Shown here piece after piece: positions 1,539 through 62,117 of a stretch of 64,000 bases of DNA. The position numbers and the translations under genes are program-made. Location of the stretch: the NCBI GenBank assembly GCA_038059695.1, contig JBBTIZ010000069.1, positions 2,969 to 66,968 of the forward strand, in the 5' to 3' direction. Position 1 is the first letter of the stretch. Every line of letters starts with the position of its first letter. A model generated the notes under the pieces. It ran no database searches, was not told where the DNA came from, and saw only the letters and a program-made list of their open reading frames with translations. This DNA is from Planctomycetota bacterium (GTDB taxonomy: Bacteria; Planctomycetota; MHYJ01; JACQXL01).

Positions 1539-1618
1539 CCCCGTTAGAAGCGTCCACTATTGGGTGATTAGACACACTTATTGTTTTATCACGCTACTAC
1601 TGTTCGCTTCTAACGGGG
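1539..1618. repeat. Hairpin/TIR element, CCCCGTTAGA family, copy 1
   Basis: CCCCGTTAGAAGCG at 1539-1552 and its reverse complement CGCTTCTAACGGGG at 1605-1618. The TAG stop (1610-1612) of the next gene lies in the right arm. Confidence 0.8.
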
Positions 1619-6037: not shown

Positions 6038-6697
6038 TTACTTCTTTCCCGAATATCCTGACGCCCCGACCACCCGGGCGCCGCCTTCTTTGAGGTGCTC
6101 GAGCATCTTCCGGACCTCTTCCTTTTCGCCTTCCACTTCCAGGACGAACCAGGTTGAGGTATCGGTCAGCGAGCCCTCCAGGATATTGACCGTAATGTTA
6201 TAGTCGCGGGCAATCTGCCACAGGGTCGGCTGCTGGCGCTGTTGCTCGGAGAACAAGACCTTCACGGTCTGCTTAACCTTAATCTTATTGCCCAGGAAGG
6301 CCACCAGGTTCTTGAGCCGGCCGATTGATTCCTTGGTCATCGCGGTGAACTGGACGCCCACGATATTATTGCCGTCATAACGGGCCGAGGGCTTAACCCA
6401 GGCCACCCGTCCGTCCGCCTTGAGCGGCTCGCCGCCCAGCATCGGAATGCCCACAGTAAAGGTCATTTTATCATCCTTTAACAAGGTATCCGCGGTCAGA
6501 AACCTCATCCCGCGCATACTGATATTCAGGATGGGGTATTGGTCTGACGAGCCCTTGAAAATGGCGAACAATCCACCGCCTGATTCTTTGTATTGCACTA
6601 TAGCGCCTTTGATGGGTATCCGGGTATCTTTTCTGTGTTCGCTGCCGCGGTCACTGCGGTGTTCGCTTTCGCGGTCTCTGCGGAGTTCATTAGCCAT
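6038..6697 (-). CDS. PilZ domain - NIL-like domain fusion protein
   Basis: RKDTR (RxxxR) and NISMRG (NxSxxG) PilZ motifs. C-terminal YNITVNILEGSL...FVLEVEGEKEEV resembles NIL domains. The first ~17 codons are repeat-encoded. Confidence 0.6.
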   Translation of the reverse strand: MANELRRDRESEHRSDRGSEHRKDTRIPIKGAIVQYKESGGGLFAIFKGSSDQYPILNISMRGMRFLTADTLLKDDKMTFTVGIPMLGGEPLKADGRVAWVKPSARYDGNNIVGVQFTAMTKESIGRLKNLVAFLGNKIKVKQTVKVLFSEQQRQQPTLWQIARDYNITVNILEGSLTDTSTWFVLEVEGEKEEVRKMLEHLKEGGARVVGASGYSGKK

Positions 6698-10180: not shown

Positions 10181-11638
10181 ATGGCAAAGGCAGCAGCCGA
10201 ATCCCGTGAGGGAAAGTCATCATCCCCGTCCAAACGCACCGCGGCCCGCCCGAACGACCGAAAGGTCGGGCAGGCAAAATCAAAACAGGCCAACGCCCCG
10301 ACTCCGGAGGCCATCCAGAAAATGCTTAATAAGGCCAAGCAGCCATCCGCAGACGCAATGTCCATGCACCCCTTCTACAGAGGCAAAATAGAGATAGTCC
10401 CGAAGAGCTGCATCCGCGACTACAATGATTTTGCCATCTGGTACACGCCCGGCGTGGCCGCGCCTTGCAAGGACATCCAGGCCAATCCTGAAAAGGTCTT
10501 TGAGCACACCAATAAATGGAATACCGTAGCCGTTATTACGGACGGTACCCGCGTCTTGGGATTAGGCGATATCGGGCCGCACGCGGCTATCCCGGTCATG
10601 GAAGGCAAAGGCATGCTCTTCAAATACCTGGGCGGCGTTGACGCCTTCCCCATCTGCCTGGACACCAAAGACCCGGATGAATTTATCAAGACCGTCAAAT
10701 ATCTGGAACCCTGTTTTGGCGGCATCAATCTGGAAGACATCGCCCAGCCAAAATGTTTCAGGATTCTTGATACCCTGCGCAAAGAAATGCCTATCCCGGT
10801 CTGGCACGATGACCAGCAAGGCACCGCGGCCGTCACTCTGGCCGGACTAATTAACGCGGTGAAAATCCAGGGCAAGAAACTGTCCGAAGTAAAGATAGCC
10901 ATGGTCGGCGCCGGCGCGGCTAATATCTGCATCGCCCGGATGATTATCAAGGCCGGTGTTAATCCCAAAAACATCATTATGGTCGATACCAAGGGCACCC
11001 TGCACCGGGACCGCCAGGACCTGGCCACCGGCCATCCGGAAAAATGGGAGATGTGCCTCAAGAGCAATACCAATAACGTCAAAGGCAATATTCCCGAAGC
11101 CATGAAAGGCGCCGAGGTATTACTGGCCCTTTCCCAACCCGGCCCTGGTGTCATAAAGAAAGAATGGGTTCGCATGATGGCGCCCAAGCCCATCGTCTTT
11201 GTCTGCGCCAATCCGGTGCCGGAAATCTGGCCCTGGGAGGCCAAGGAAGCCGGGGCTGATATCGTGGCTACCGGACGCTCTGATTTCCCGAATCAGGTCA
11301 ACAACTCGCTCGGTTTCCCGGCTATCTTCCGCGGCGCGCTGGATGTCCGGGCCAAAACCATCACGGACGAGATGTGCATCGCCTCAGCCGAGGCGCTGGC
11401 TAAATATGCCGAGAAAAAAGGATTATCCAAGGAACACCTGATTCCGACCATGAGCGATTGGCGGGTCTATCCGGAAGAAGCCGTGGCTGTCGGCATGAAA
11501 GCCATTGAACAGGGTGTGGCTAAATTGATTCTGACCACAGACCAACTGCGCGATAATGCCACTAAAATGATTCAACGGTCCATCAAGATAACCAAGATGA
11601 TGATGAAGGAAAAGATTATTCAGCTGCCGAAAAAGTAG
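10181..11638 (+). CDS. NAD(P)-dependent malic enzyme (short MaeB-type, no PTA domain)
   Basis: FYRGKIEI, YTPGVA, GTAAVTLAGLINA and MVGAGAANI. Carries a ~55-aa K/A/P-rich N-terminal extension. Confidence 0.85.
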   Translation: MAKAAAESREGKSSSPSKRTAARPNDRKVGQAKSKQANAPTPEAIQKMLNKAKQPSADAMSMHPFYRGKIEIVPKSCIRDYNDFAIWYTPGVAAPCKDIQANPEKVFEHTNKWNTVAVITDGTRVLGLGDIGPHAAIPVMEGKGMLFKYLGGVDAFPICLDTKDPDEFIKTVKYLEPCFGGINLEDIAQPKCFRILDTLRKEMPIPVWHDDQQGTAAVTLAGLINAVKIQGKKLSEVKIAMVGAGAANICIARMIIKAGVNPKNIIMVDTKGTLHRDRQDLATGHPEKWEMCLKSNTNNVKGNIPEAMKGAEVLLALSQPGPGVIKKEWVRMMAPKPIVFVCANPVPEIWPWEAKEAGADIVATGRSDFPNQVNNSLGFPAIFRGALDVRAKTITDEMCIASAEALAKYAEKKGLSKEHLIPTMSDWRVYPEEAVAVGMKAIEQGVAKLILTTDQLRDNATKMIQRSIKITKMMMKEKIIQLPKK

Positions 11639-14761: not shown

Positions 14762-14768
14762 AGAAGAG

Positions 14769-14894
14769 GTTACAACCGGTTACAAGACGTTACAAAACGT
14801 TACAAGAGGTTGCTTAAGGCTACGGTTTACACTGAGCGCAGCGAATGTGCAACTTCCTGTAACATCATGTAACCCTACTGTAACTTCATGTAAC
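14769..14894. repeat. 10-bp-phased GTTACA array arranged as a large palindrome
   Basis: GTTACA at 14769, 14779, 14789 and 14799, plus GTTGCT at 14809. The inverted arm has TGCAAC at 14848 and TGTAAC at 14858, 14868, 14879 and 14889. Confidence 0.85.
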
Positions 14895-14904
14895 ATTATA
14901 TATC

Positions 14905-15542: not shown

Positions 15543-16430
15543 ATGAAAGAGATTCAAACTCAGGTGCTTCTAGGTGACTGCAAAGATGTCTTAAAAACTC
15601 TCGATAAGAATTCCATTGACCTCATTATCACTTCACCGCCTTATGCCGACAGAAGAATTCAAACTTATGGCGGTATCAAACCGGAAAATTATGTTGAGTG
15701 GTTTTTACCGAGAAGTGAACAACTTCTCAGGGCTCTCAAGCCAGATGGAACTTTTATTCTGAATATTAAAGAAAAAGCCGAGAATGGCGAGCGGCATACC
15801 TACGTCATAGAGCTAATTCTGGCCATGCGTAAGCAGGGCTGGTTATGGACTGAAGAATTAATCTGGCATAAAAAGAACTGTTATCCGGGTAAGTGGCCTA
15901 ACCGGTTTCGTGATTCATGGGAAAGATTATTGCAGTTTAATAAAACCGGTAAGTTTAAGATGTATCAAGAAGAAGTAATGGTTCCGGTTGGGGACTGGGC
16001 CAAAAATAGGTTAAAACGACTTAGCGAAACAGATAAGACAAGAGATAACTCTAAAGTTGGCAGTGGTTTCGGCAAGAATGTTTCTAATTGGCTGGAACGT
16101 GATTATGCCTATCCGACAAACGTTTTACATATGGCTACGGAATGTAACAACAAAAACCACAGCGCAGTTTTTCCGGAGGCATTGCCTGAATGGTTTATAA
16201 AATTGTTTACTCGTGAGCATGATTGGGTTTTAGACCCTTTCTTGGGCTCAGGAACAACTGCAAGGGTAGCCAAACGGATGTGCCGGAATTCAATCGGCAT
16301 TGAAATAGTGCCGGAATATTATGAAATGGTGAAATCCGAGGTTACAGCCGTAGAATTTCTCTTGCATGAAAAGAAAGAACCCTATGAAGTCAATAAGCAT
16401 AAGCGAAGTTCAAAATTATGTAGAAAATAA
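15543..16430 (+). CDS. DNA methyltransferase, beta-class N4-C/N6-A type
   Basis: Motif IV ITSPPY near the N-terminus and motif I DPFLGSGTT near the C-terminus. Confidence 0.85.
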   Translation: MKEIQTQVLLGDCKDVLKTLDKNSIDLIITSPPYADRRIQTYGGIKPENYVEWFLPRSEQLLRALKPDGTFILNIKEKAENGERHTYVIELILAMRKQGWLWTEELIWHKKNCYPGKWPNRFRDSWERLLQFNKTGKFKMYQEEVMVPVGDWAKNRLKRLSETDKTRDNSKVGSGFGKNVSNWLERDYAYPTNVLHMATECNNKNHSAVFPEALPEWFIKLFTREHDWVLDPFLGSGTTARVAKRMCRNSIGIEIVPEYYEMVKSEVTAVEFLLHEKKEPYEVNKHKRSSKLCRK

Positions 16431-17121
16431 TATCGGCAATTTCCATAAACGCCGGTTACAAAGCTTAAGCACTCTAAAGCTGGGTAAGGTTCTCAGTCGT
16501 AAAAATCCATACCTTTTTAAAGCCAAGAATATACTGACTGCACAGGATTTAGTTAAGACATTACTTGATGCGCATCTATCATCTCAGGAAGAAACAATAT
16601 TCGGGGAGTTCCTTGAAGGGCTGGCTATCTTTATCTGCAATAAAGTTTATGACGGGAAGAAGTCGTCTGCCGAAGGAGTTGATTTGGAATTTGAGAAACG
16701 CAAAATTAAATATATTGTTTCCATAAAATCTGGCCCGAATTGGGGTAATAATAGCCAGATTAAAAAGATGACTGATAATTTTAAGAAGGCAAAGCGGATT
16801 TTGCATTCTAATGTTGCCAAGAAGAAAATTGTAGCAGTTAATGGTTGTTGCTACGGTCGTGATAACCAGCCCGAAAAAGACGATTACTTAAAACTCTGCG
16901 GTCAGAGATTCTGGGAATTTATATCAGATAATGCTGAATTATATATCCAGATAATTGAACCTTTAGGGCATAAAGCAAAAGAGAAGAATGAAGAGTTCAT
17001 TGAAGCATACTCAAAGCTGATTAATAATTTCACATTTGAATTCGGCAAGGAATTCTGCAAGAATGGCGTGATAAACTGGACGGCGTTAGTCAAATTTAAC
17101 TCAGCAACAAAAGTGAGATAA
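16366..17121 (+). CDS. Putative type II restriction endonuclease partner
   Basis: Overlaps the methylase 3' end on the same strand and is AT-rich. An acidic/lysine cluster GVDLEFEKRKIKYIVSIKSG could be a PD-(D/E)xK-like core. No family recognised with certainty. Confidence 0.45.
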   Translation: MKRKNPMKSISISEVQNYVENNIGNFHKRRLQSLSTLKLGKVLSRKNPYLFKAKNILTAQDLVKTLLDAHLSSQEETIFGEFLEGLAIFICNKVYDGKKSSAEGVDLEFEKRKIKYIVSIKSGPNWGNNSQIKKMTDNFKKAKRILHSNVAKKKIVAVNGCCYGRDNQPEKDDYLKLCGQRFWEFISDNAELYIQIIEPLGHKAKEKNEEFIEAYSKLINNFTFEFGKEFCKNGVINWTALVKFNSATKVR

Positions 17122-17841: not shown

Positions 17842-17913
17842 CATAGAGTTATTTGCCCCAAACATCCGTATTTTTCTTAAAGACCCCCTTCATATCTTAC
17901 AAGACACGGGAGA

Positions 17914-18274
17914 TTATCGTAAATCCGCACGGAGATTATGGCAATTCTGGCCGGGAGTTATCGTAAATCCGGCCGGGCATTATGGCAAATCCAGCCGGTC
18001 ATTATGGCAATTCTGGCCGGTCGTTATGGCGAATCCGCCGGGAGATTATCGTAAATCCAGCCGGAGGTTATGGCAAATCCAGCCGGAGGTTATGGCGCAT
18101 CTGCACGGAGGTTATGGCAAATCCAGCCGGAGATTATGGCGCATTCGGCCGGAGGTTATGGCAAATCCGGCGGGGAGTTATGGCGAATCCGGCCGGAGGT
18201 TATGGCGCATTGTATGGGTGGTTATGGCGAACCGGGTGGGGGGTTATGGTGAGGGGGGTGGGGTATCTCCCCCC
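17914..18274. repeat. Tandem array 1: 16 units of 22 bp (consensus TTATGGCRAATCCRGCCGGAGG)
   Basis: TTATGG/TTATCG anchors fall every 22 bp from 17914 to 18244 without an indel. The array ends in GGGGTATCTCCCCCC. Confidence 0.9.
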
Positions 18275-18386: not shown

Positions 18387-18497
18387 AATCCCCCTCACTC
18401 CCCCTTTTTCAAAGGGGGATGTGGAAATTTATTCGTGGGATTCGTATAATTCGTGCTATTCGTGTTCTCTTCTTTGTGGCCTTTGTGTTCTTTGTGG
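18387..18497. repeat. Composite: CCCCC..TTT/AAA..GGGGG palindrome plus 9-bp runs ATTCGTG x4 and TTTGTGG x3
   Basis: ATTCGTG-type anchors at 18431, 18440, 18449 and 18458. TTTGTG anchors at 18473, 18482 and 18491. Confidence 0.85.
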
Positions 18498-19660: not shown

Positions 19661-19736
19661 AACCACAAAGAGCACAAAGGTCACAAAGGGACAACCCCCT
19701 TTTAGTCCCCCTTTGTTAAGGGGGATTAAGGGGGGT
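19661..19736. repeat. Composite: CACAAAG x3 (9-bp run) plus CCCCC..GGGGG palindrome
   Basis: Approximate mirror image of 18387-18497 on the other side of the aminotransferase gene. Confidence 0.8.
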
Positions 19737-28316: not shown

Positions 28317-28360
28317 CCACTAAGACACAAAGAATTCTTAGTGTCTTGGTGTCTTTGTGG
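28317..28360. repeat. Inverted run of CCACTAAG/ACACAAAG-type 8-9-bp modules
   Basis: CCACTAAGACACAAAGAATTCTTAGTGTCTTGGTGTCTTTGTGG. Confidence 0.75.
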
Positions 28361-44016: not shown

Positions 44017-45012
44017 TTATTCCAGCGATTCTGTCATGACTTTATAAATCCGGTCCGTGTCATCGCCAAGTTTACATTCTATCCATTTTATGTCCGGGAA
44101 TCGCCTGAACCAGGTCATCTGTTTCCGGGCTAAATAACGGGTGCCCTTTTTGACTTCCTCTTTGGCCGCCTCTAATGTGATTTCTCCATTTAGATGCCTG
44201 ACAATCTCTTTGTAACCGATGGCATCCCCGGACTGCTTACCCAATCCCTTGCCAGAATTAATTAACCCTTTAACCTCTTCTACCAGGCCATGCTTAAACA
44301 TCCGCTCAACCCGCTCGTTAATCCGCTGGTATAATTCCTCCGACTTCCATTTCAGGCCAACCATCGTCACCGGATAGCGCAATTCGGTTTTCTTAAAATG
44401 CGTCTGTAATGTCGAAATGGGTTTGCCGGTTATTTTATAGACCTCCAACGCCCGGATAATCCGCTTGCGGTCATTGGCATGAATCTTATCTGCCTTGGCC
44501 GGGTCAACCTTCATCAATTGCTCATAGAGAAAAGCCAGCCCCTTTTCCGAAGCGGTCTTTTCCATCTCGGCCCTTAATTGTGAATCACTGCCTGAATCAG
44601 CAAATATCCCGTAGAGCAATGCCTTGAGATAAAGCGGCGTCCCGCAGACCAGCAACGGCTTTTTGCCCCGTTTAATAATATCGGCAATAGCCCGGTCGCA
44701 GTCACTGACGAACTTAGCCACATTATATTCTTCATACGGCTCAATTATATCTATGAGATGATATCTTATCTTCTTCCTCTGCTCGGCGTTCGGCTTGGAC
44801 GTTCCGATATCCATACCCCGGTATATCTTCATTGAGTCAACCGAGATTATTTCGTAATCACTATGGCGGGCAATTCGGGAGGCAATGGCGCTCTTACCGC
44901 TGGCGGTCTGGCCGATGATTATCCTGAGCCCCGTTAGAGATGAATTAGAAAGACATTGTCCCATAAATCTACCTTGCGTATTCATCTCTAACGGGGTGAG
45001 CATACCTTCCAC
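44017..45012 (-). CDS. miaA: tRNA dimethylallyltransferase
   Basis: P-loop GQTASGKS, DSMKIYRGMDIGT and YAKRQ-like ARKQMTWFR. The N-terminus is repeat-encoded and the start is uncertain (45012 or 44964). Confidence 0.85.
   Translation of the reverse strand: MEGMLTPLEMNTQGRFMGQCLSNSSLTGLRIIIGQTASGKSAIASRIARHSDYEIISVDSMKIYRGMDIGTSKPNAEQRKKIRYHLIDIIEPYEEYNVAKFVSDCDRAIADIIKRGKKPLLVCGTPLYLKALLYGIFADSGSDSQLRAEMEKTASEKGLAFLYEQLMKVDPAKADKIHANDRKRIIRALEVYKITGKPISTLQTHFKKTELRYPVTMVGLKWKSEELYQRINERVERMFKHGLVEEVKGLINSGKGLGKQSGDAIGYKEIVRHLNGEITLEAAKEEVKKGTRYLARKQMTWFRRFPDIKWIECKLGDDTDRIYKVMTESLE
44929..44996. repeat. Hairpin/TIR element, CCCCGTTAGA family, copy 2 (inside miaA 5' end)
   Basis: CCCCGTTAGAGATGAAT...ATTCATCTCTAACGGGG. 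Confidence 0.8.
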
Positions 45013-45618: not shown

Positions 45619-46107
45619 TTGACTCTATCAGCCGATACTATTACTGTTATGCAAAAGAGTCAAAAGATACCCCGGCTCAGCCCGGAGTTGAGTGAGTTAT
45701 TAGAAAGCAAAGCAACTATGAAACGACTGCCGCAGACCGAAGAGATATTCAAGCGGTTTGAGATAGGCCTGTACGAAGCCGCCCTGCGCTCAAACCCGAA
45801 TAACGTCGAAGCCCTCAGGTCACTGGGCTATATCTATTCCAGCGAGGGGCTGCACGACAAAGCCGTGGAGATAGACAAACGCTTAGTCCGGCTCCTGCCT
45901 GACGAATCCATTGTCCATTACAACCTGGCCTGTTCATACTCGCAACTCAATAATCTTGAAGGCGCCCTGAATGAACTGGAGATGTCCATGCTATTGGGCT
46001 ATAACGACTGGAAACATATGGATGGCGACAAAGACCTGGACAACCTCAAGAAAGACCCCCGCTACCAGCAAATACTGTCCACCCTGAAGAAGAAATATAT
46101 TGTCTGA
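45619..46107 (+). CDS. TPR-repeat protein
   Basis: LGYIYSSEGLHDKAVEIDKRLVRLLPD and YNLACSYSQLNNLEGAL TPR units. Confidence 0.65.
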   Translation: MTLSADTITVMQKSQKIPRLSPELSELLESKATMKRLPQTEEIFKRFEIGLYEAALRSNPNNVEALRSLGYIYSSEGLHDKAVEIDKRLVRLLPDESIVHYNLACSYSQLNNLEGALNELEMSMLLGYNDWKHMDGDKDLDNLKKDPRYQQILSTLKKKYIV

Positions 46108-46116
46108 TAAATCCTG

Positions 46117-46185
46117 CCACGAAGGCACAAAGACACTAAGAATAAATTAACTGGCTGTTTTCTTCGTGCCTTAGTGTCTTAGTGG
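46117..46185. repeat. Inverted run of CCACGAAG/GCACAAAG/ACACTAAG 8-bp modules
   Basis: Left run 46117-46140 and inverted run ending at 46185. Overlaps the GTG start proposed by the ORF track for queC. Confidence 0.75.
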
Positions 46186-46232
46186 CTAAATTTACTTGCG
46201 TCCGTAGGGTATATTTTCCTATACTACGAAAT

Positions 46233-46841
46233 ATGCAATCAATTATTCTCCTCTCCGGCGGACTTGATTCGGCGGTTTCTCTGGCCCTGGCGCTCAGAAA
46301 AGGACTCAAGGTAAAGTTAGCCCTGACCTTTGAGTACGGACAGAAATCAGCCCAACAGGAAATCCGCTCGGCCCGATTCCTCTGTCGCAAATATCACATC
46401 CCGCATAAGGTATTCAACCTAAAATGGCTGGGTAAGCTGGCCGCCAATCCGCTGACCGATAAAACCAAACCGATTCCCAAACGATTCGCCTCCCATCTGG
46501 TCTGGATTCCCAACCGCAATGCCCTGTTCATTAATATCGCGGCTTCGTTTGCCGAGGCGCTGGGTTACCGATACATCATCACCGGATTCAACAAGGAAGA
46601 GGCCGTCAATTTCCCGGACAACTCCGTTGCCTTTATCAATGCCATCAACCAGACACTCAAATACTCAACTCTTCACGGCAATGTCAAGGTAGTAAGTTTT
46701 ACCTCTAAGATGAACAAAAAACAGATGATTGACCAGGCCCGGAAATTGGGATTACCGCTGGATAAACTCTGGAGTTGCTATGAAGGCGGCAAGGCCCCCT
46801 GCGGCGCCTGCGAATCCTGTCTGCACCGGGGTAAGTATTAA
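46233..46841 (+). CDS. queC: 7-cyano-7-deazaguanine synthase
   Basis: LLSGGLDS PP-loop and a C-terminal CGACESCLHR zinc site. Confidence 0.9.
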   Translation: MQSIILLSGGLDSAVSLALALRKGLKVKLALTFEYGQKSAQQEIRSARFLCRKYHIPHKVFNLKWLGKLAANPLTDKTKPIPKRFASHLVWIPNRNALFINIAASFAEALGYRYIITGFNKEEAVNFPDNSVAFINAINQTLKYSTLHGNVKVVSFTSKMNKKQMIDQARKLGLPLDKLWSCYEGGKAPCGACESCLHRGKY

Positions 46842-46882
46842 ATCCCCATTAATCCCTCCGTACGAAGGGAAATAGGTGGATT
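46842..46882. repeat. Degenerate CCCC..GGGG-family palindromic element
   Basis: ATCCCCATTAATCCCTCCGTACGAAGGGAAATAGGTGGATT. Confidence 0.65.
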
Positions 46883-46941
46883 AGACACCTAAATTTACCA
46901 CAACTTATTAAATTTTATAGAGTTAGGTTATTTTACCCGTT

Positions 46942-47311
46942 CACCAATATTTCTTCCCCGGAGTCCCAGATTTCTTTCCGGGAGTCCCAGATTTCTTCCC
47001 CGTAACTACGGATTTCTTTCCGGTAACTACAGATTTCTTCCCGGTAACTACGGATTTCTTTCCGGTAACTACGGATTTCTTCCCGGTAACTACGGATTTC
47101 TTTCCGGTAACTACGGATTTCTTCCCCGTATATACGGATTTATTCCCCGTATATACGGATTTATTCCCTGTATATACAGATTTCTTTCCCAATGCACCGG
47201 GGACTTTCCGCCCTGAGACGGAATCTTTCCACCTTGAGGTGGGAACTCTCCACCTTGAGACGGGAACTTTCCGCCCTGGGGCGGAAACCTTCAGCCCCTG
47301 GACGGGACTCC
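46942..47311. repeat. Tandem array 3: about 17 units of 21 bp, each a short palindrome plus ATTTCTTYC
   Basis: ATTTCT/ATTTAT anchors every 21 bp from 46970 to 47180, and CTTTCC-type anchors every 21 bp from 47204 to 47288. Coincides with track ORF 46941-47405 (KKSVVTG repeats), whose coding status is doubtful. Confidence 0.85.
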
Positions 47312-47326
47312 TATATGCAGCGTGAG

Positions 47327-47431
47327 CCCCGTTAGAAGCAAACACCGCAGTGACCGCGATAGCGAACACAATTGAGATGGAAGAACTATAATTAAGTTTA
47401 ACCATCTGGCATTGAACGCTTCTAAACGGGG
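47327..47431. repeat. Hairpin/TIR element, CCCCGTTAGA family, copy 3
   Basis: CCCCGTTAGAAGC...GCTTCTAAACGGGG. The interior carries the GTTCGCTATCGCGGTCACTGCGG motif in reverse. Confidence 0.75.
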
Positions 47432-47480
47432 TGAAGGTATATGGAGGGATTTAATTAGGTATGTTTACCCAGCACATAGT

Positions 47481-48362
47481 TTATGTGCTGGGCTGTCCCC
47501 CGAATTCTTTATCAATAGATTCCTCAATATAGGTTTTCTTGTTTATCAAATCCTCACTATAAACATAATTATTACTCTTTAATCTAAACTTGGTGAAATG
47601 AACCTTAAACACTAACCACCTAAACAAAACAATATTTATGATAATTTCAGAATCTAAGAACTCAGGATATATTCCATGGATAGGCCCATACTGCTTTGAT
47701 GACAGACGTTCGATAACAATGCTTGGCGATTGACCTTCGCCCTTTATAAATATTCTAATGAAGTCTAACCTATCATCATAAATGGTTTCCCCTACCAGAA
47801 GACTTAAAAATTCATACGCAATTAAAGCAACAATCTTCCCATCTAATAACGGCCCTTTCAAAGATGGGGATATTGATTCCAGTGACCATTTTGCAACTCT
47901 TACAGTTTCAGATAACTGAACAACTTTATTTTCTTCCATGCTACGCAAAAAGTTAATCTTATCTATTACCCTATCTTCTGGTAATCCAGCAGATTTCAAC
48001 ATTTGTTCTATATTAGGAGTATTATTCTGTGAGTCGAGGATTACTGACCCATCTTTTTTTGTATGCGGCACAACCCTGAATTTAGAGTCTTTATATCTTA
48101 ATTTAATGAAATTACCTTGCTTATCTTTAGCATCATATAATTGACTGTTTTCAATCGTGCTATATAACTTAGGAATCGTATTCTTTAGATTTTTTATAGC
48201 CAGCCTAATTGATGGATATGATTTAACGCGACTCACTAATTTTGAACCTAAAGCCTTGTTACACACCGAGCAGAGCACATTTATCTGCAATCTTCCTCCA
48301 ATGCTTTCGGGTATGATATGTTCCCATGAATCCGCGGGATTTTTCAGGCAGAGAATACACAT
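47481..48362 (-). CDS. HNH-motif nuclease-like protein with unknown C-terminal domain
   Basis: CILCLKNPADSWEHIIPESIGG...LCSVCN (CxxC...EH...CxxC HNH pattern). Strongly AT-rich. Confidence 0.6.
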   Translation of the reverse strand: MCILCLKNPADSWEHIIPESIGGRLQINVLCSVCNKALGSKLVSRVKSYPSIRLAIKNLKNTIPKLYSTIENSQLYDAKDKQGNFIKLRYKDSKFRVVPHTKKDGSVILDSQNNTPNIEQMLKSAGLPEDRVIDKINFLRSMEENKVVQLSETVRVAKWSLESISPSLKGPLLDGKIVALIAYEFLSLLVGETIYDDRLDFIRIFIKGEGQSPSIVIERLSSKQYGPIHGIYPEFLDSEIIINIVLFRWLVFKVHFTKFRLKSNNYVYSEDLINKKTYIEESIDKEFGGQPST

Positions 48363-48540
48363 GTTAAAATTACAGTTAAATCTCATTATAATTTCATTTT
48401 AAGATAAATGTAGCATACTTATAGGACGACCCCGGCATCAATTATTTATATGTATTACGCCTACAGAGTGTCGTTATCTTATTTACATTTAACAGTGCAA
48501 TCTTACATCGGGTGACACAGGCTAAATTAAGATAGGAGTT

Positions 48541-48846
48541 CTATTTAGATTCATCCATTACCTTCTTGATTGATTTATCCAATATATCTTTATCTATAAC
48601 TATTTTGTTAGATGGTATATTGATAGGTTGCGGCCTAATTATTATTTCCTTAAAAACCTTATTGTTTTCATCAAAAGCTATAAGTGAAACCCGCCCTGTA
48701 ATGCGGTTAATCTTATAAAAAGCAATACTAGAATCGGAATTGATAAAATGATATTGCCAATAACTACCAGTGATTAATATGGCTATATTAATAAGCAACA
48801 GTAAGCCAATAATAACAAGCAAAAACTTTATTGATAAAATCTTCAT
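48541..48846 (-). CDS. Small membrane-anchored protein, unknown function
   Basis: N-terminal TM FLLVIIGLLLLINIAILI, GGAG SD upstream, AT-rich. Confidence 0.5.
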   Translation of the reverse strand: MKILSIKFLLVIIGLLLLINIAILITGSYWQYHFINSDSSIAFYKINRITGRVSLIAFDENNKVFKEIIIRPQPINIPSNKIVIDKDILDKSIKKVMDESK

Positions 48847-48937
48847 AACTATTTATTCTCCATTTCCAAGGGGAAACCCCCTTTATGTTTTACATTACAC
48901 TCACCCTGCCATTTACTTCACCCTACCATTTCCCCCT

Positions 48938-49090
48938 TTATCTGGCAAGGATTTGTTCCGCCGCCAAATTCTGTGACAGATTCCGGTGTTTTGAATTACC
49001 CAGATATTCATTAAGCGAGGAGACCTGCATCTTACCTTTACGGACTAGTTCAATGGCATTGGCCGCGGTTATCCTTTTGGGACACATCAT
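48938..49090 (-). pseudogene. Duplicated carB 3' end (50-codon ORF; last 43 codons colinear with the carB C-terminus)
   Basis: Positions 48921-49068 align without gaps to 50240-50387, with 128 of 148 identical (hand count). Translates as ..AANAIELVRKGKMQVSSLNEYLGNSKHRNLSQNLAAEQILAR. Confidence 0.8.
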
Positions 49091-49143
49091 TTAATTTTAT
49101 CCCCTTACTTCATTATTTCTTTCCCGGCGGTTTGAGGTATTTC

Positions 49144-49159
49144 TTGACCGACCGGTCAA
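49144..49159. promoter_or_regulatory. Palindrome TTGACCG-AC-CGGTCAA (operator-like)
   Basis: 7-2-7 dyad seen directly in the non-coding part of the cassette. Confidence 0.3.
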
Positions 49160-49318
49160 AATCGGACACATAATTCCGGTCTTCTAACCTTTCGGGTTCC
49201 CTCTTTTTGAACTACCGAGAAATCCTCGGAGGTTGCCTTGGCATTTAATTCGCCTTCGTCCCTATTCCTTACATACTATATAATATATTCTATATACTGG
49301 GCATCCTACCATTTTCCA

Positions 49319-50188
49319 TTATTTATCTTTTAGCCGTTTATTTTGCGGTTTTGAAAGATAGTTTTGCCGGGTTACCACCTTTTGACTGGTTTCCTGTTCC
49401 AGTTTTTTGCGGGCTATTCCCGCTACATTGCCGCCCCGTTGCGCCACACCCTTATTCTCACTAAAACCCTCAGGATGTTCCACTTTGGTTATCTCCGTGG
49501 TGGAGGCCTCTCCCAGCATAGAGAAAATCAGTTCCAGGTCAGTCATATGGTCGCGCAGGTTTTCCCGTTTCAGGTTTTTAAGTTTCTTGTACTGGCTGGG
49601 CGTAAGCCCAAATGTTGCCTTGGAGATTTCAGCGGTCAGTATTTCGTATTCCCGGTCTTTGGCAACGCCGCGCTTTTTCCATTCGTCGGTAAGTTCTTCA
49701 CGGATGGCAATTCCACGCATCCGTTTTTCCACCCAGTCGTCACTGTATCCCTTTGCCTTATACAATGCCCGGGTGCGTTTGGTGGCTATTTCCGGGTCTT
49801 CTATTTCCTGCACCCGTTCGTATCCGACCCGGGCCAGCCAACGTTTGAATGGCTCGGCCTTAGGCGAAGGGATGGATTGGATGATGCGGAACATCGCTTC
49901 GGTATTGGCGCAGTCCGTCTCGTATTTTTTGCCGTCTGATGATTCCAATTTCAGTTGTCGACAAAATGTCGACAACTCGGCGCCTTCTTCAGTTTCAACC
50001 CGCACTTTCATTCTATACCAATAATCGCGGGGATTTTCGCTTTCGGCCAACACGGCAATAACATCAACAACAGAAAAGAACCATTCATTTTTATGGATGG
50101 TCTTGCGGATTTTCCGGCCTCGGAAAACGGCTATTTTCGTTACAGGAACAAGTTCGCTATCGCGGTCTCTGCGGAGTTCGTTATTCAT
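49319..50188 (-). CDS. Bro-N / DinD-like (phage antirepressor-type) protein
   Basis: FRGRKIRKTIHKNEWFFSVVDVIAVL...PRDYWYRMK Bro-N pattern and the conserved YKAKGYSDDWVEKRMRGIAIREELTDEWKKRGV segment. Confidence 0.7.
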   Translation of the reverse strand: MNNELRRDRDSELVPVTKIAVFRGRKIRKTIHKNEWFFSVVDVIAVLAESENPRDYWYRMKVRVETEEGAELSTFCRQLKLESSDGKKYETDCANTEAMFRIIQSIPSPKAEPFKRWLARVGYERVQEIEDPEIATKRTRALYKAKGYSDDWVEKRMRGIAIREELTDEWKKRGVAKDREYEILTAEISKATFGLTPSQYKKLKNLKRENLRDHMTDLELIFSMLGEASTTEITKVEHPEGFSENKGVAQRGGNVAGIARKKLEQETSQKVVTRQNYLSKPQNKRLKDK

Positions 50189-50256
50189 AATTTACCCTTT
50201 CCGAAAACTGTGGAATTCCGGGGACAATCTTAGATTCTACCCTACCATTTTTGCCT

Positions 50257-53800: not shown

Positions 53801-54781
53801 TTATTTCTTTTCCGCCGGATAAAATTCATATTCCCAGGCGGTACCACGTATCGGAATCTCCTCAATTTTACCGGATGCTTCCTTTATCTTATAGTTAAAA
53901 CACTCAACCCGATTACCTTTATCATCATATTTGGAAATCTCTTTCCATTTTAACTTGCCTTCAGCGGTATAGTTAGCATACTCAACCCGATTGTTCTTAT
54001 CATCATACTTAGAAAGCCACTTATGTTCTAACTTGACCTCAGCGTCATAGTAAGCCAATTCAATCTCATTACCTTTATCATCATACTTGCAAGTAGATTT
54101 CCATTCTAACTTACCATTAGCGTAATAAACATCCTGCTCAACCTCATTACCCTTATCATCATACTTATAAAAACCCTTAGAGTATAATTTACCCTTAGCG
54201 TCATAGACAGCCCACTCAATTTCATTACCCTTGTCATCATACTTGTAAAGATTCTTATTGTATAATTCGCCCTCATCACCATATGAAACCCACTCAATCC
54301 GATTGCCTTTATCATCGTACTTGTAAAGATACTTATATTTTGACTTGCCCACAGCGTTATAGAGAGCATCCTCAACCTGATTGCCCTTATCATCATATTT
54401 GGAAAAACCCTTAGAGTATACCTTACCGTCAGCGTAATAGACATTCTCCTCGACCTGATTACCATTATCATCATACTTGCAAAGACCTTTAGTGTATAAC
54501 TTACCATCAGTATTATAGTGAGCCCACTCAACCCGCTTGCCCTTATCATCATATTTGATAACTGTCTTGCCTAACGCCTCTATTTTACCAGACTTTTTAT
54601 TAAACTCATAATTAGTCTCTGTCGTTGTCTTAAGTCCTTTGGGTATCTTTTCCTTTTTATCTTTGGCAAAGGCGGGATTAAAACCAACTATGATGAGGAA
54701 TAAAAACACAAGGGTTGACCAGATTATCATCAATTTCTTATTCGTGTCATTCGTATTCATTCGTGATATTCGTGTTAGCAT
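53801..54781 (-). CDS. Exported protein with nine 26-aa YD-like repeats (KYDDKGN.VE)
   Basis: Nine KYDD(K/N)GN units and a signal-like MIIWSTLVFLFLIIVGFNPAFA. The first codons are repeat-encoded, so the start is uncertain (54781, 54760 or 54730). Confidence 0.65.
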   Translation of the reverse strand: MLTRISRMNTNDTNKKLMIIWSTLVFLFLIIVGFNPAFAKDKKEKIPKGLKTTTETNYEFNKKSGKIEALGKTVIKYDDKGKRVEWAHYNTDGKLYTKGLCKYDDNGNQVEENVYYADGKVYSKGFSKYDDKGNQVEDALYNAVGKSKYKYLYKYDDKGNRIEWVSYGDEGELYNKNLYKYDDKGNEIEWAVYDAKGKLYSKGFYKYDDKGNEVEQDVYYANGKLEWKSTCKYDDKGNEIELAYYDAEVKLEHKWLSKYDDKNNRVEYANYTAEGKLKWKEISKYDDKGNRVECFNYKIKEASGKIEEIPIRGTAWEYEFYPAEKK

Positions 54782-56063: not shown

Positions 56064-56492
56064 TTATGGAATATTTTTAGAACACAAGCAATTTTAGATT
56101 CATAAGGTATGTCCTTAAGCGATATATGCTCTGTCCTTATGAATAAAACCATATGTCATTTTAGAATAAACCCAATGTCCCTTTGTTATAAACCCTACGT
56201 CCTTATGAAACAAAAGGTATGTCCCTTTGTTTCAAACGGTATATCCTTTTAGAATAAATCGTATGTCCCTTTATAACAAACCCTATGTCCTTTTGGAACA
56301 AATCGTATGTCCTTCTGTTCTAAAAAGTATGTCCTTTTAGAATAAACCCAATGTCCTTATATAACAAACGATATGTCTTTTTATAATAAACGGTATATCC
56401 TCTTGGGACAAACCCTATATCCTGTAGAAATAATACGAACTACCTCTTATATAACAGGGGGTATCCCCTACCAGTAGGGAGGGGGGGTATCT
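56064..56492. repeat. Tandem array 2: about 18 units of 22 bp (consensus AAACNNTATGTCCTTTTNNAAY)
   Basis: TATGTCC-type cores every 22 bp from 56108 to 56416 (15 units), with degenerate units on both sides. Ends in GGGGGTATCCCC and GGGGGGGTATC. Confidence 0.9.
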
Positions 56493-60464: not shown

Positions 60465-60511
60465 GTTACAATAAGGTTACAATCAGTTACAAAAAGTTAC
60501 AAGAGGTTACA
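60465..60511. repeat. 10-bp-phased GTTACA array (5 units)
   Basis: GTTACA at 60465, 60476, 60486, 60496 and 60506. Shares AGTTACAAGAGGTT with the 14.8-kb array. Confidence 0.85.
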
Positions 60512-60533
60512 CTAACATGTGATAACACTATCT

Positions 60534-60575
60534 ATTCGTGTGATTCGTCCCATTCGTGTAATTCGTGTTCTCTTT
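60534..60575. repeat. ATTCGTG 9-bp run (4 units)
   Basis: ATTCGTG-type anchors at 60534, 60543, 60552 and 60561, abutting the aldolase stop. Confidence 0.8.
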
Positions 60576-61946: not shown

Positions 61947-62117
61947 TACGAATCACAAAGAGGAACACGAATCACACGAATCCGGCGAATCACACGAATA
62001 ATTCGTGCCATTCGCTATCGCGGTCTCAGTAGAGTTCGTTCCTATTCGTGACATTCGTGTTAGCATTTACTCTTTATATTCGCTTCGCGGTCTCTGCGGA
62101 GTTCGAGTTCGTGTTCG
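61947..62117. repeat. Inverted CACGAAT / ATTCGTG runs plus conserved 36-bp block
   Basis: CACGAAT units run up to about 62000, then ATTCGTG units follow. GTTCGCT.TCGCGGTCTC motifs occur at 62010-62035 and 62078-62105. Confidence 0.85.

What the first reader, a model, noticed from the sequence alone, without database searches (positions are those of the whole stretch)
46942..47311. Array 3: 21-bp repeats whose internal palindromes change sequence but stay palindromic
There are about 17 units with anchors every 21 bp. Each unit is a short dyad followed by A(T)TTCTTYC. The dyad sequence differs between blocks yet remains self-complementary. The forms are GGGA-G-TCCC (x2), CCGTA-AC-TACGG (x6), CCGTATATACGG (x2), CTGTATATACAG, CCACC-TTGA-GGTGG and CCGCCC-TG-GGGCGG. 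This compensatory pattern suggests the hairpin or dyad itself is the selected feature. The period is a multiple of 3, and the minus strand is open (track ORF 46941-47405, KKSVVTG repeats). However, that ORF's Met and its hydrophobic signal-like N-terminus are encoded by an unrelated CCCCGTTAGA-family element (47327-47431). It is therefore unresolved whether this is a secreted lysine-rich repeat protein or a DNA/RNA hairpin array that happens to be open.
Basis: partly seen in the sequence, partly recalled or inferred. Interest (0 to 1): 0.65.

Follow-up and report, generated by a model that had tools for sequence, protein, structure and literature searches.

The report
Repeat gene built from hairpin units
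Eighteen 21-base repeats, each able to fold into a small hairpin, lie in an open reading frame that most likely encodes a small secreted lysine-rich repeat protein but could instead be a structured RNA; it is a curiosity known from only two loci.

Summary
The array is real. It has 18 in-phase 21-bp units (46941-47318), identical in three independent groundwater assemblies. The hairpin signal still holds. Every unit folds locally, more than synonymous recodings of the same protein allow (P about 3e-4). The only homologous array (L005) shows the same enrichment (P about 0.001). Two alleles in the population differ by 10 substitutions in 63 bp. All 10 are nonsynonymous, and the hairpins survive them. 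In the 5' units, R/W, G/R, P/S and A/V/T replacements are coupled through base pairing. Coding signals also exist. Minus-strand frame A is the only frame with a start codon. It scores best of six frames on codon usage. In the 3' KKS units, 73% of single-base codon differences are synonymous. Both loci end the frame at a homologous GKKSxTPGKK... C-terminus. The heptads resemble beta-roll repeats. The signal-peptide evidence is weak, because that stretch belongs to a repeated inverted-repeat element and is antisense to a common intergenic motif. Verdict: probably a translated orphan gene whose repeats double as hairpins (0.5). A non-coding hairpin RNA is the rival (0.33). My genome and metagenome scans used a wrong 22-nt period and were wasted.

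The parts
46941..47405 (-). Open reading frame A, 154 codons plus TGA. It comprises a signal-peptide-like N-terminus, six divergent heptads, 3 x (T/L)G(N/K)KSVY, 6 x TGKKSVV, 2 x (T/P)GKKSGT and the end PGKKYW*.
   Evidence: It is the only one of six frames that is open across the array and has a start codon. It has the best codon score of six frames (0.144). A gene was called here on L003 but not on the identical L001.
46941..47318 (-). The array of 18 in-phase 21-nt units, each with a local hairpin in the minus-strand RNA.
47193..47318 (-). Six older, divergent 5' units (AYRSPVQ, GLKVSAP, GRKVPVS, RWRVPTS, RWKDSVS, GRKVPGA). They carry the strongest hairpins (-3 to -12.9 kcal/mol), for example UUUCCGCCC-CA-GGGCGGAAA.
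   Evidence: Base-pair covariation at first codon positions. AlphaFold2 pLDDT is about 40-45 here.
47130..47192 (-). Three KSVY units with perfect 12-nt palindromes (CCGTATATACGG x2, CTGTATATACAG x1). The third differs by a double change that is synonymous on both sides and keeps the palindrome.
47004..47129 (-). Six KKSVV units in a 42-nt higher-order repeat (GGA/GGG alternation). Only one has a perfect dyad (47000-47011). The other five carry ACC and have only a 3-bp dyad or a 4-bp stem with a 7-nt loop.
46941..47003 (-). Two KSGT-P units (GGGACUCCC type) and the terminal unit with the stop codon.
   Evidence: The C-terminus is homologous to the L005 end GKKSRTPGKKSA*.
47319..47405 (-). Signal-peptide-like N-terminus MVKLNYSSSISIVFAIAVTAVFASNGAHA.
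   Evidence: Read by eye; no signal-peptide predictor was available. It is homologous to the 32-aa mini-ORF in element 1539-1618.
47327..47431 (.). Inverted-repeat element. The arms CCCCGTTAGAAGC (47327-47339) and CCCGTTTAGAAGC (47418-47430, opposite strand) enclose the start codon and the hydrophobic coding stretch.
   Evidence: About 70% identical to the element at 1530-1640.
47343..47369 (+). Copy of a recurrent intergenic/5' motif (CACCGCAGTGACCGCGATAGCGAACAC). It lies antisense to the hydrophobic core of the putative signal peptide.
47259..47321 (-). Allelic patch with 10 substitutions between the window allele and the L003/L145 allele. The flanks are otherwise 99.9-100% identical.
46873..46891 (-). 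Terminator-like hairpin about 50 nt downstream of the stop codon.
   Evidence: consensus scan only.
47468..47492 (.). Perfect 11-bp hairpin (CCCAGCACATA/TATGTGCTGGG) spanning the stop codon of the upstream HNH gene.
   Evidence: I6.
47481..48386 (-). Upstream neighbour on the same strand and in the same reading frame: an HNH_5 endonuclease gene. It is the last gene of a low-GC island, 47.4-50.25 kb.

Best explanation
This is a small orphan gene on the minus strand (46941-47405). Its 21-nt coding repeats are themselves quasi-palindromes, so protein-level and nucleic-acid-level constraints overlap.

Shown:
- There are 18 in-frame heptad units behind an ATG.
- Every unit can form a hairpin.
- Hairpin potential exceeds what the amino acids dictate.
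- Paired positions co-vary.
- Two alleles coexist in the population.

Inferred:
- The transcript is translated into a Sec-exported, lysine-rich protein.
- Its C-terminal half, about 9 heptads of xKKSV(V/Y)TG, stacks as a beta-roll or solenoid.
- Its first six heptads form a disordered linker whose sequence is shaped mainly by base pairing.
- The hairpins are kept by nucleic-acid-level processes: correction of imperfect palindromes by intrastrand template switching, and gene conversion between units. Selection on mRNA structure may add to this.
- The hairpins in turn make the array prone to slippage and patchy conversion. That yields length and sequence variants of a secreted product, as in a contingency-type in-frame minisatellite.
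For: Coding:
- Frame A is open for 169 codons, and it is the only frame open across the array that has a start codon.
- It has the best codon score of six frames, equal to the neighbouring HNH gene.
- In 16 KKS-type units from the window and L005, all variable columns of the constant part are third codon positions.
- In those units, 73% of single-base codon differences are synonymous, against 2-14% in four other frames. The Thr third position takes all four bases.
- Five of six VV units break the dyad through a synonymous ACC codon while keeping the peptide.
- Both loci end frame A at a homologous C-terminus..GKKSGTPGKKYW* and ..GKKSRTPGKKSA*.
- In L005 the non-repeat part of frame A is stop-free (P about 0.05).
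- The heptads match Pfam LbR_Ice_bind above its cut-off (40 versus 30 bits). They also match the heptad beta-roll proteins BpaC and Lolium IRI in the PDB.
- AlphaFold2 places a strand every 7 residues with pLDDT about 85 over residues 73-138.

Hairpins:
-, as summarised in the observation check.

Variation:
- A 63-bp patch of 10 substitutions lies in otherwise identical DNA and was seen in two wells.
- The array has 42- and 63-nt higher-order repeats.
Against: - No protein homologue exists apart from L005, in searches of 5.8 billion and 1.8 billion sequences. The many weak hits are junk translations of other 21-bp satellites, so the Pfam and PDB matches may reflect low complexity only.
- The start codon and 'signal peptide' sit in a repeated inverted-repeat element. 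Its other copy (1539-1618) has only a 32-aa ORF between convergent genes. The hydrophobic core is antisense to a common intergenic motif.
- L005 has no signal peptide. Its 21-nt hairpin units continue past the stop codon with TAA in frame A.
- All 8 codon changes between the alleles are nonsynonymous.
- In the 5' units the variation sits at first codon positions, including R/W swaps, and is coupled by pairing.
- Gly is always the rare GGR and Val1 the rare GTA, and Lys codons never vary synonymously. An RNA stem constraint explains this pattern equally well.
- The gene caller skipped the ORF on L001.
- Foldseek found no significant structural match.
Confidence: 0.5

Rival explanations
1. Non-coding structured RNA. 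The minus-strand transcript downstream of the HNH gene is an array of about 18 mini-hairpins with variable stems, joined by a constant purine-rich linker (GGRAAGAAAUCY). The shape of the hairpins plus the linker is what matters, for example as a multivalent binding platform or sponge for an RNA-binding protein, or as a processed array. The open frame would then be incidental to a 21-nt period and a stop-poor composition.
For: - Hairpins exceed what the amino-acid sequence forces, and this replicates in L005.
- The stem pairs 7-16, 10-13 and 4-19 take more than one base-pair type, including G-C/G-U/A-U at 7-16. This couples otherwise odd replacements such as R/W with A/V/T.
- The allelic patch is entirely nonsynonymous but hairpin-preserving: 5 of 6 stem changes keep pairing.
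- In L005 the hairpin units run on past the stop with TAA in frame A, and there is no signal peptide.
- Both loci place the array 3' of a same-strand gene, after strong palindromes.
- Variable sites in the constant part (Ser3 C/U, Gly3 A/G) are the wobble-tolerant stem positions. Unpaired synonymous Lys sites never vary.
- Codon usage is poor: only GGR and GTA.
- The signal-like start comes from a repeated element.
Against: - An ATG-initiated frame open for 154 codons, joining in phase across element and array, is unlikely by chance (my rough estimate is 0.05-0.1).
- Synonymous-like drift with loss of symmetry occurs in the VV units and in L005 units l2-l4.
- The position of the ORF end is conserved in both loci.
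- No Rfam family matches. The best hit is PrrB/RsmZ at 13 bits against a threshold of 44.
- The count of G-U versus A-C oppositions, 17 versus 10, does not clearly pick a strand. Both strands fold well.
- Many stems are only 3-5 bp.
Confidence: 0.33
2. Ordinary coding minisatellite, with the dyads as a by-product. Codons for Ser/Pro (UCC/CCC) and Gly/Arg/Trp (GGN/NGG), and for Val and Thr, are reverse complements of one another. A heptad such as S-V-x-T-G is then automatically half-palindromic, and duplication of one lucky unit does the rest.
For: - For KKSVVTG, three of five stem pairs are fixed by the amino acids (reasoned).
- Only about five hairpin types are independent.
- Most VV units are imperfect.
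- L005 KKS units have decayed dyads.
Against: - Synonymous recoding of the same protein almost never reaches the observed hairpin content.
- Compensatory changes occur in paralogous units and between alleles.
- The rarest Gly and Val codons, the ones needed for pairing, are used exclusively.
- A 9-bp perfect stem occurs in unit B.
Confidence: 0.08
3. Double-stranded DNA binding-site array (iteron, centromere or operator-like). A protein would bind the constant GGGAAGAAATCC every two helical turns (21 bp) on one face of the DNA.
For: - 21 bp equals two helical turns.
- The window holds other non-coding short-period arrays: 22 bp at 17909-18263 and 56137-56423.
- The array lies at the edge of a low-GC island.
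Against: - No replication, partition or regulator gene lies next to it.
- The dyads vary, so a sequence-specific dimer could not read them.
- The 5' units lack the constant motif.
- No relatives were found in plasmids, phages or viral contigs.
- The 22-bp array at 17909-18263 lacks comparable dyads.
Confidence: 0.07

Closest known systems
In-frame tandem-repeat (VNTR or minisatellite) genes for secreted or surface proteins, i.e. contingency-type repeat genes
   Same: The period is a multiple of 3. It shows higher-order repeats, subfamily expansions and allelic patches inside otherwise identical DNA, with an N-terminal export signal followed by repeats.
   Different: Every unit is also a hairpin, and paired positions co-vary, which is not a described feature of such genes. 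No copy-number variants were seen in the few assemblies available.
Heptad beta-roll repeat proteins: Lolium perenne ice-recrystallisation inhibitor (PDB 3ULT, Pfam PF21300) and trimeric-autotransporter head repeats (BpaC 7O23, YadA head)
   Same: It has a 7-residue repeat with small or Ser, Val and Gly at fixed positions. HMMER scores are above the Pfam cut-off and E = 3.5e-9 to BpaC. AlphaFold2 places a strand every 7 residues.
   Different: It has two lysines per heptad and Ser in place of the Asn ladder. There is no anchor or stalk domain, no significant Foldseek match, and the scores are inflated by repetition.
Correction of imperfect palindromes by intrastrand template switching (from my own knowledge of the E. 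coli and phage T4 literature; not looked up here)
   Same: It would explain double changes that keep a palindrome perfect, as in CCGTATATACGG versus CTGTATATACAG, without any selection.
   Different: It predicts perfect Watson-Crick palindromes, but the 5' units keep G-U-type oppositions. The mechanism was not tested here.
Multi-hairpin protein-sponge RNAs (CsrB, RsmZ and RsmY)
   Same: They are RNAs of a few hundred nucleotides made of many short imperfect hairpin repeats with a recurring GGA.
   Different: In those RNAs GGA sits in the loops, whereas here it is in stems and linker. The covariance-model score is far below threshold (13 versus 44 bits). The strict 21-nt period and the open frame are not features of those RNAs.
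CRISPR arrays and type III toxin-antitoxin RNA repeats (ToxI)
   Same: These are regularly spaced arrays with palindromic elements.
   Different: The logic is inverted here: the palindrome varies and the linker is constant. The unit is only 21 nt. There is no cas or toxN-like gene, and the array is downstream rather than upstream of its neighbour.

Membership tests
Left-handed beta-roll heptad repeats (Pfam PF21300 LbR_Ice_bind; YadA-like head) | Profile match above the curated cut-off | tested here: met
   40 bits against a cut-off of 30, E = 4.2e-10. Spurious translations of other 21-bp satellites score as well against the query, so the match is weak evidence.
Left-handed beta-roll heptad repeats (Pfam PF21300 LbR_Ice_bind; YadA-like head) | xxNxVxG heptad with an inward Asn ladder, Val core and Gly turn | tested here: inconclusive
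   Val and Gly align, but Ser replaces Asn (alignment).
Left-handed beta-roll heptad repeats (Pfam PF21300 LbR_Ice_bind; YadA-like head) | Beta-roll three-dimensional fold | tested here: inconclusive
   The single-sequence AlphaFold2 model has strands every 7 residues with pLDDT about 85. The best Foldseek E-value is 0.098, to unrelated solenoids.
Sec-type signal peptide | Basic n-region, hydrophobic h-region, and small residues at -3 and -1 | tested here: inconclusive
   MVK / LNYSSSISIVFAIAVTAVFA / SNGAHA fits by eye, but no predictor was available. The stretch is part of a repeated element and is antisense to an intergenic motif.
CRISPR array | Constant repeats of 23-50 nt separated by unique spacers, usually with cas genes | tested here: not met
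   The unit is 21 nt in total and the constant part about 12 nt, and it is the palindrome that varies. No cas or defence-RNA model hits were found.
CsrB/RsmZ-type sponge RNA | Match to the covariance model; GGA in hairpin loops | tested here: not met
   PrrB_RsmZ scores 13.3 bits against a gathering score of 44. GGA lies in stems and linker.
Iterons or partition-site arrays | Near-identical binding sites next to a rep or par gene on a replicon | tested here: not met
   The neighbours are QueC, HNH_5 and Bro-N/PDC-S13. There are no plasmid or phage relatives. The dyads differ between units.
Diversity-generating retroelement variable region | Variation confined to template adenines; a reverse transcriptase and template repeat nearby | tested here: inconclusive
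   The 10 allelic differences involve all base types. No second copy of the patch was seen near the array. The window was not screened for a reverse transcriptase.
Type III toxin-antitoxin RNA (ToxI-like) | Identical repeats of about 34-40 nt upstream of an endoribonuclease toxin gene | tested here: not met
   The period is 21 nt, the units are divergent, the array is downstream of its neighbour, and there is no PADLOC hit for the neighbour.

The most novel reading that the evidence does not exclude
The array is a new kind of structured RNA (or folded single-stranded DNA) element. It is a chain of about 18 mini-hairpins at a strict 21-nt spacing. Stem sequences are free to change as long as they pair, and a purine-rich linker (GGRAAGAAAUCY) stays constant. 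It sits 3' of a same-strand gene in both known loci. The open frame and the 'signal peptide' would be by-products of the period and of a neighbouring repeated element.
Probability: 0.3. Interest if true: 0.7.

Novelty: new variant of a known kind. Interest (0 to 1): 0.4.

Why it matters
If the dual reading is right, this is a compact natural case in which nucleic-acid pairing dictates amino-acid replacements inside a coding repeat. R/W, G/R and P/S swaps are coupled through base pairs. That is relevant to how repeat proteins originate from palindromic DNA, and to how gene finders and dN/dS tests misjudge such loci. If the non-coding reading is right, it would add a new hairpin-array RNA family. 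In both cases the evidence rests on two loci from uncultured bacteria, so the practical importance is currently small.

Tried and rejected
1. Pattern error. In (genome contigs; metagenome contigs; viral) I wrote N11 instead of N10, so the pattern had a 22-nt period. It could not match this array. The hits are unrelated 22-bp arrays or chance.
2. The correct 21-nt pattern on viral contigs gave only unrelated lysine-rich giant-virus repeats and one phage iteron-like array.
3. Protein searches in frame A, in the antisense twin frame, and with a concatenate of all other frames found only P0001/L005. No cluster relatives were found.
4. The search of 1.8 billion representative proteins returned 716 hits, but the ones inspected were generic heptad or junk satellite translations. 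L143 and L144 are unrelated 21-bp arrays.
5. No relatives were found in plasmids, phages or viral contigs.
6. No Rfam family matched.
7. Shine-Dalgarno test: this genome rarely uses one, so its absence is uninformative.
8. Promoter and terminator scans were at shuffle level.
9. Strand assignment from G-U versus A-C oppositions (17 versus 10) and from fold energies was inconclusive.
10. A link between the array and the HNH neighbour is rejected. The upstream gene in L005 is unrelated and the flanks are not homologous.
11. The idea that the 22-bp array at 17909-18263 is the same kind of element is rejected, because it has no consistent dyads.
12. I considered -1 frameshifting at G GGA AAG, integron attC sites, REP elements and invertible segments by inspection only. 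None fits well and none was tested.

Full report
WHAT IS THERE. Between the 3' end of queC (46233-46841, +) and the 3' end of an HNH_5 endonuclease gene (47481-48386, -) lies a 639-bp gap. Most of it is filled by one minus-strand open frame, 46941-47405 (154 codons). From codon 30 to the stop, the frame consists of 18 in-phase 21-nt units (46941-47318). Read 5' to 3' on the minus strand, these are:
- six divergent units: AYRSPVQ, GLKVSAP, GRKVPVS, RWRVPTS, RWKDSVS, GRKVPGA;
- three xG(K/N)KSVY units;
- six TGKKSVV units arranged as a 42-nt higher-order repeat (GGA/GGG alternation);
- two xGKKSGT units;
- the terminal unit PGKKYW*.

The DNA comes from Hainich groundwater metagenomes, wells H41 and H43. 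The same sequence occurs in independently assembled contigs L001 and L002, and the parts of L003 and L004 that overlap it are also identical. The array is therefore not an assembly artefact.

CHECK OF THE OBSERVATION. The period, the extent and the open minus strand are as described. The dyad list is overstated:
- GGGAGTCCC occurs once, not twice.
- CCGTAACTACGG occurs once, not six times. The other five VV units read CCGGTAACTAC(G/A)G. The extra base comes from the synonymous Thr codon ACC in place of ACG.
- The remaining four forms are correct.

The general claim that each unit carries a dyad survives a test. In 21-nt windows centred on the dyads, all 17 units have a minus-strand RNA stem of at least 4 bp with G-U allowed. 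For 11 representative units, mean stem length and the number of stems of at least 5 bp exceed 5000 synonymous recodings of the same protein (P = 2e-4 to 4e-4) and within-unit shuffles. Because the units are related by descent, I count only about five independent hairpin types, so the real significance is more modest. Whole-array folding z-scores are -5.2 (minus-strand RNA) and -7.0 (plus-strand RNA).

RELATIVES. Only one homologous array was found: L005, a 1791-nt JGI contig. Its array is 73-78% identical to the window array over about 130 nt. Its flanks and its upstream gene are unrelated. Searches of 5.8 billion proteins in frame A, in the antisense twin frame and with a concatenate of the remaining frames found nothing else. 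A search of 1.8 billion representatives gave 716 hits, but those inspected are generic heptad or junk translations of other 21-bp satellites. Plasmid, phage and viral collections were empty, and Rfam has no match.

I must report an error. The pattern I used for the single genome and metagenome scans had a 22-nt rather than a 21-nt period. Those scans were wasted and could not be repeated.

EVIDENCE THAT THE HAIRPINS ARE MAINTAINED.

(a) Covariation in the four 5' units that share one stem register, plus their two allelic variants. Of all cells, 90.7% are paired, against 39-65% when the partners are slid. Three of nine pairs change on both sides: 7-16 takes G-C, G-U and A-U; 10-13 takes U-A, C-G and U-G; 4-19 takes U-A and C-G. 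Only 24-30 of 500 shuffles do as well. These paired positions are first codon positions. The odd replacements Arg/Trp, Gly/Arg, Pro/Ser and Ala/Val/Thr are therefore coupled through base pairing.

(b) Two alleles coexist in the population. L003 (well H41) and L145 (well H43) share 10 substitutions within 47259-47321, in DNA that is otherwise 99.9-100% identical over kilobases.
- All 8 affected codons change the amino acid.
- All three affected hairpins persist: -9.5 to -6.7, -12.9 to -7.8 and -3.0 to -7.5 kcal/mol.
- By my count from the sequences, five of six stem changes keep pairing, including one U-A to C-G double change.

(c) The hairpin enrichment replicates in L005 (mean unit energy -3.68 versus -1.64 +/- 0.44 kcal/mol, P about 0.001). 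There, 21-nt units with new palindromes (GTTACCGGTAAC, GTTACCGGTAAT, ATTACCTGTAAT, which form a G-C, G-U, A-U series at the outer pair) continue beyond the frame-A stop and carry TAA in frame A.

(d) The array uses only the genome's rare Gly codons GGA and GGG (15% and 14% of Gly; GGC is 52%). In the KKS units the first Val is always the rarest Val codon, GTA. These are the bases needed for pairing.

EVIDENCE FOR TRANSLATION.
- Frame A is open for 169 codons. It is the only frame open across the array that has a start codon. The plus-strand twin frame (DFFPVTT...) is open for 132 codons but has no start codon that would give an ORF of 40 or more codons.
- Frame A has the best codon score of six frames (0.144). 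That is below housekeeping genes (0.19-0.65) but equal to the neighbouring island gene.
- In 16 KKS-type units from both loci, the variable columns of the constant part are all third codon positions. Of single-base codon differences, 73% are synonymous in frame A against 2-14% in four other frames (63% in the antisense twin frame). The Thr third position takes all four bases.
- Synonymous or conservative drift has broken the dyad in five of six VV units and in L005 units l2-l4 while keeping KKSV(V/Y)(T/S)G.
- Both loci end frame A at a homologous place: GKKSGTPGKKYW* and GKKSRTPGKKSA*.
- In L005 the non-repeat part of frame A is stop-free (P about 0.05).
- The heptads score above the Pfam cut-off for the grass ice-binding beta-roll. 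They align with the heptad repeats of BpaC and the Lolium protein.
- AlphaFold2 puts a strand every seven residues with pLDDT about 85 over residues 73-138. The first six heptads are modelled as disordered. Foldseek gives no significant match.

WEAKNESS OF THE SIGNAL-PEPTIDE ARGUMENT.
- The start codon and the hydrophobic stretch lie inside an inverted-repeat element (arms at 47327-47339 and 47418-47430).
- That element is about 70% identical throughout to a second copy at 1530-1640. The identity covers the position of the start codon and the ...FASNGA end.
- The second copy carries only a 32-codon ORF, squeezed between two convergent genes.
- The window copy has an extra 24 nt. Its hydrophobic core (47343-47369) is the antisense of a motif (..CCGCAG(T/A)GACCGCGA(T/A)AGCGAA..). 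That motif recurs near the 5' ends of other minus-strand genes, at 6637-6685, 50152-50167 and 62010-62025 with a further copy near 62080.
- Antisense of charged codons is hydrophobic, so the signal-like look may be accidental.
- L005 has no signal peptide. It has two strong palindromes there instead.
- The gene caller accepted the ORF on L003 and skipped it on the identical L001.
- The genome hardly uses Shine-Dalgarno sequences, so the lack of one says nothing.

INTERPRETATION. Neither pure reading explains everything. A plain coding repeat does not explain four things: the excess hairpins, the pairing-coupled first-position changes, the all-nonsynonymous but hairpin-preserving allelic patch, and the exclusive use of rare codons. 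A purely non-coding array does not explain three things: the ATG-initiated frame joining element and array in phase, the synonymous-like drift with loss of symmetry in the 3' units, and the conserved ORF end.

I therefore favour a translated orphan gene whose units double as hairpins (0.5). In this reading the 3' half is under protein-level constraint as a lysine-rich beta-roll-like repeat. The 5' half is shaped mainly by nucleic-acid pairing. How the pairing is kept is inferred, not shown. The candidates are template-switch correction of imperfect palindromes, gene conversion between units (the allelic patch makes neighbouring units more alike), and possibly selection on mRNA structure. The hairpins would in turn promote slippage and patchy conversion, giving variants of a secreted product.

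The main rival is a non-coding hairpin-array RNA 3' of a same-strand gene (0.33). Minor rivals are a by-product of codon complementarity (0.08) and a DNA binding-site array (0.07).

COMPARISON WITH KNOWN THINGS. The locus behaves like an in-frame minisatellite of a secreted protein, and its heptads resemble left-handed beta-roll repeats. Membership in that protein family is not established: the profile match is inflated by repetition, Ser replaces the Asn ladder, and there is no structural match. The locus is not a CRISPR array, an iteron or partition array, a ToxI-like antitoxin or a CsrB/RsmZ-type RNA, because in each case the defining features tested here were not met.

NOVELTY AND SCORE. 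I rate this a new variant of a known kind. The coupling of amino-acid replacements through base pairing inside a coding repeat is unusual. It rests, however, on two loci from uncultured organisms and on modest statistics. Interest 0.4.

Noticed in passing
window 1539-1618 and 47327-47431: Two homologous copies (about 70% identical) of an inverted-repeat module: arm CCCCGTT(T)AGAAGC, 12 nt, a start codon, a hydrophobic ORF ending FASNGA, then the complementary arm. The stem would enclose the start codon. Copy 1 lies between convergent genes with only a 32-aa ORF.
   Followed up: partly
window 6635-6685, 47343-47369, 50152-50167, 62010-62025, about 62080-62100: A recurrent motif of 16-27 nt (..CTCCGCAGAGACCGCGA(T/A)AGCGAA..) near the 5' ends of several minus-strand genes. 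It is tandem (24-nt period) at 6635-6688. It makes the ORFs 6038-6697 and 49319-50188 appear to share an N-terminus MxNELRRDRxSE, which may be a spurious extension. A shared 5' module GCGAAGCGAATATAAAGAGTAAATG occurs at 54781 and near 62075.
   Followed up: partly
window 17909-18263 and 56137-56423: Two non-coding arrays with a 22-bp period, of about 16 and 13 units (GGTTATGGCAAATCCGGCCGGA type and TATGTCCTTT type), in intergenic regions. They look iteron-like but lie next to housekeeping genes. The first has no consistent dyads.
   Followed up: partly
window 18431-18497, 19664-19694, 54740-54775, 60534-60568, 61965-61999: Arrays of 3-4 tandem 9-mers (ATTCGTGT[ACG], CTTTGTGGC, CACAAAGGG) recur at gene boundaries in both orientations. 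There are also 10-mer arrays (AAGAGGTTAC, TGTAACATCA, GTTACAATAA) at 14764-14896 and 60465-60515. The genome seems unusually rich in short intergenic tandem repeats.
   Followed up: no
window 47400-50250: A low-GC (about 40%) island between queC and carB carries an HNH_5 endonuclease, two small ORFs and a Bro-N protein. The Bro-N protein matches the PADLOC candidate defence family PDC-S13 (E = 6e-122).
   Followed up: partly
window 15543-17121: A type II restriction-modification pair (N6/N4 DNA methylase plus an EcoO109I-like endonuclease) lies just upstream of the 22-bp array.
   Followed up: no
window 53889-54557: A repeat with a 78-bp (26-codon) period, 8.6 copies, inside ORF 53801-54781 (326 aa, no Pfam hit).
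   Followed up: no
window 44862-44873 and 46100-46232 versus L003 3141-3242 and 4469-4603: The strain variant L003 differs from the window by a roughly 90-bp indel inside or near miaA. It also has a non-alignable segment of about 130 bp between the TPR gene and queC, a region that includes the TCTTAGTG x3 repeat also present at 28336-28359.
   Followed up: no
L005 1395-1500: Two similar palindromes (ATACCCCGCTGCTTGCGGCGGGGA and ATACCCCGCGGCTTGCCGCGGGGA, about 71 nt apart) reminiscent of CRISPR or REP-type repeats. They lie between the upstream gene and the array.
   Followed up: no
window 47481-47405 and L005 1312-1420: In both loci the array ORF is in the same reading frame as the upstream gene. 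They are separated by two stops in the window and by a single TAG in L005. This may be chance (1 in 9).
   Followed up: partly
L076, L077, L081-L085, L087-L089, L092, L095-L099, L104, L105, L108, L109, L111-L113 (metagenome contigs): My mistaken 22-nt pattern picked up a widespread set of 2-4 tandem 22-bp units (TCGGAAAAAAATCCGA plus 6 variable bases) in about 25 soil, freshwater and other metagenome contigs. Each unit is a TCGGA/TCCGA dyad around an A7 loop.
   Followed up: no
L125 (viral contig) around the match at 10779-10849: Four exact 21-bp repeats (GGGAAGAAATCGGCTTTTCTT) in a non-coding stretch of a viral contig. They are iteron-like and unrelated to the window array.
   Followed up: no
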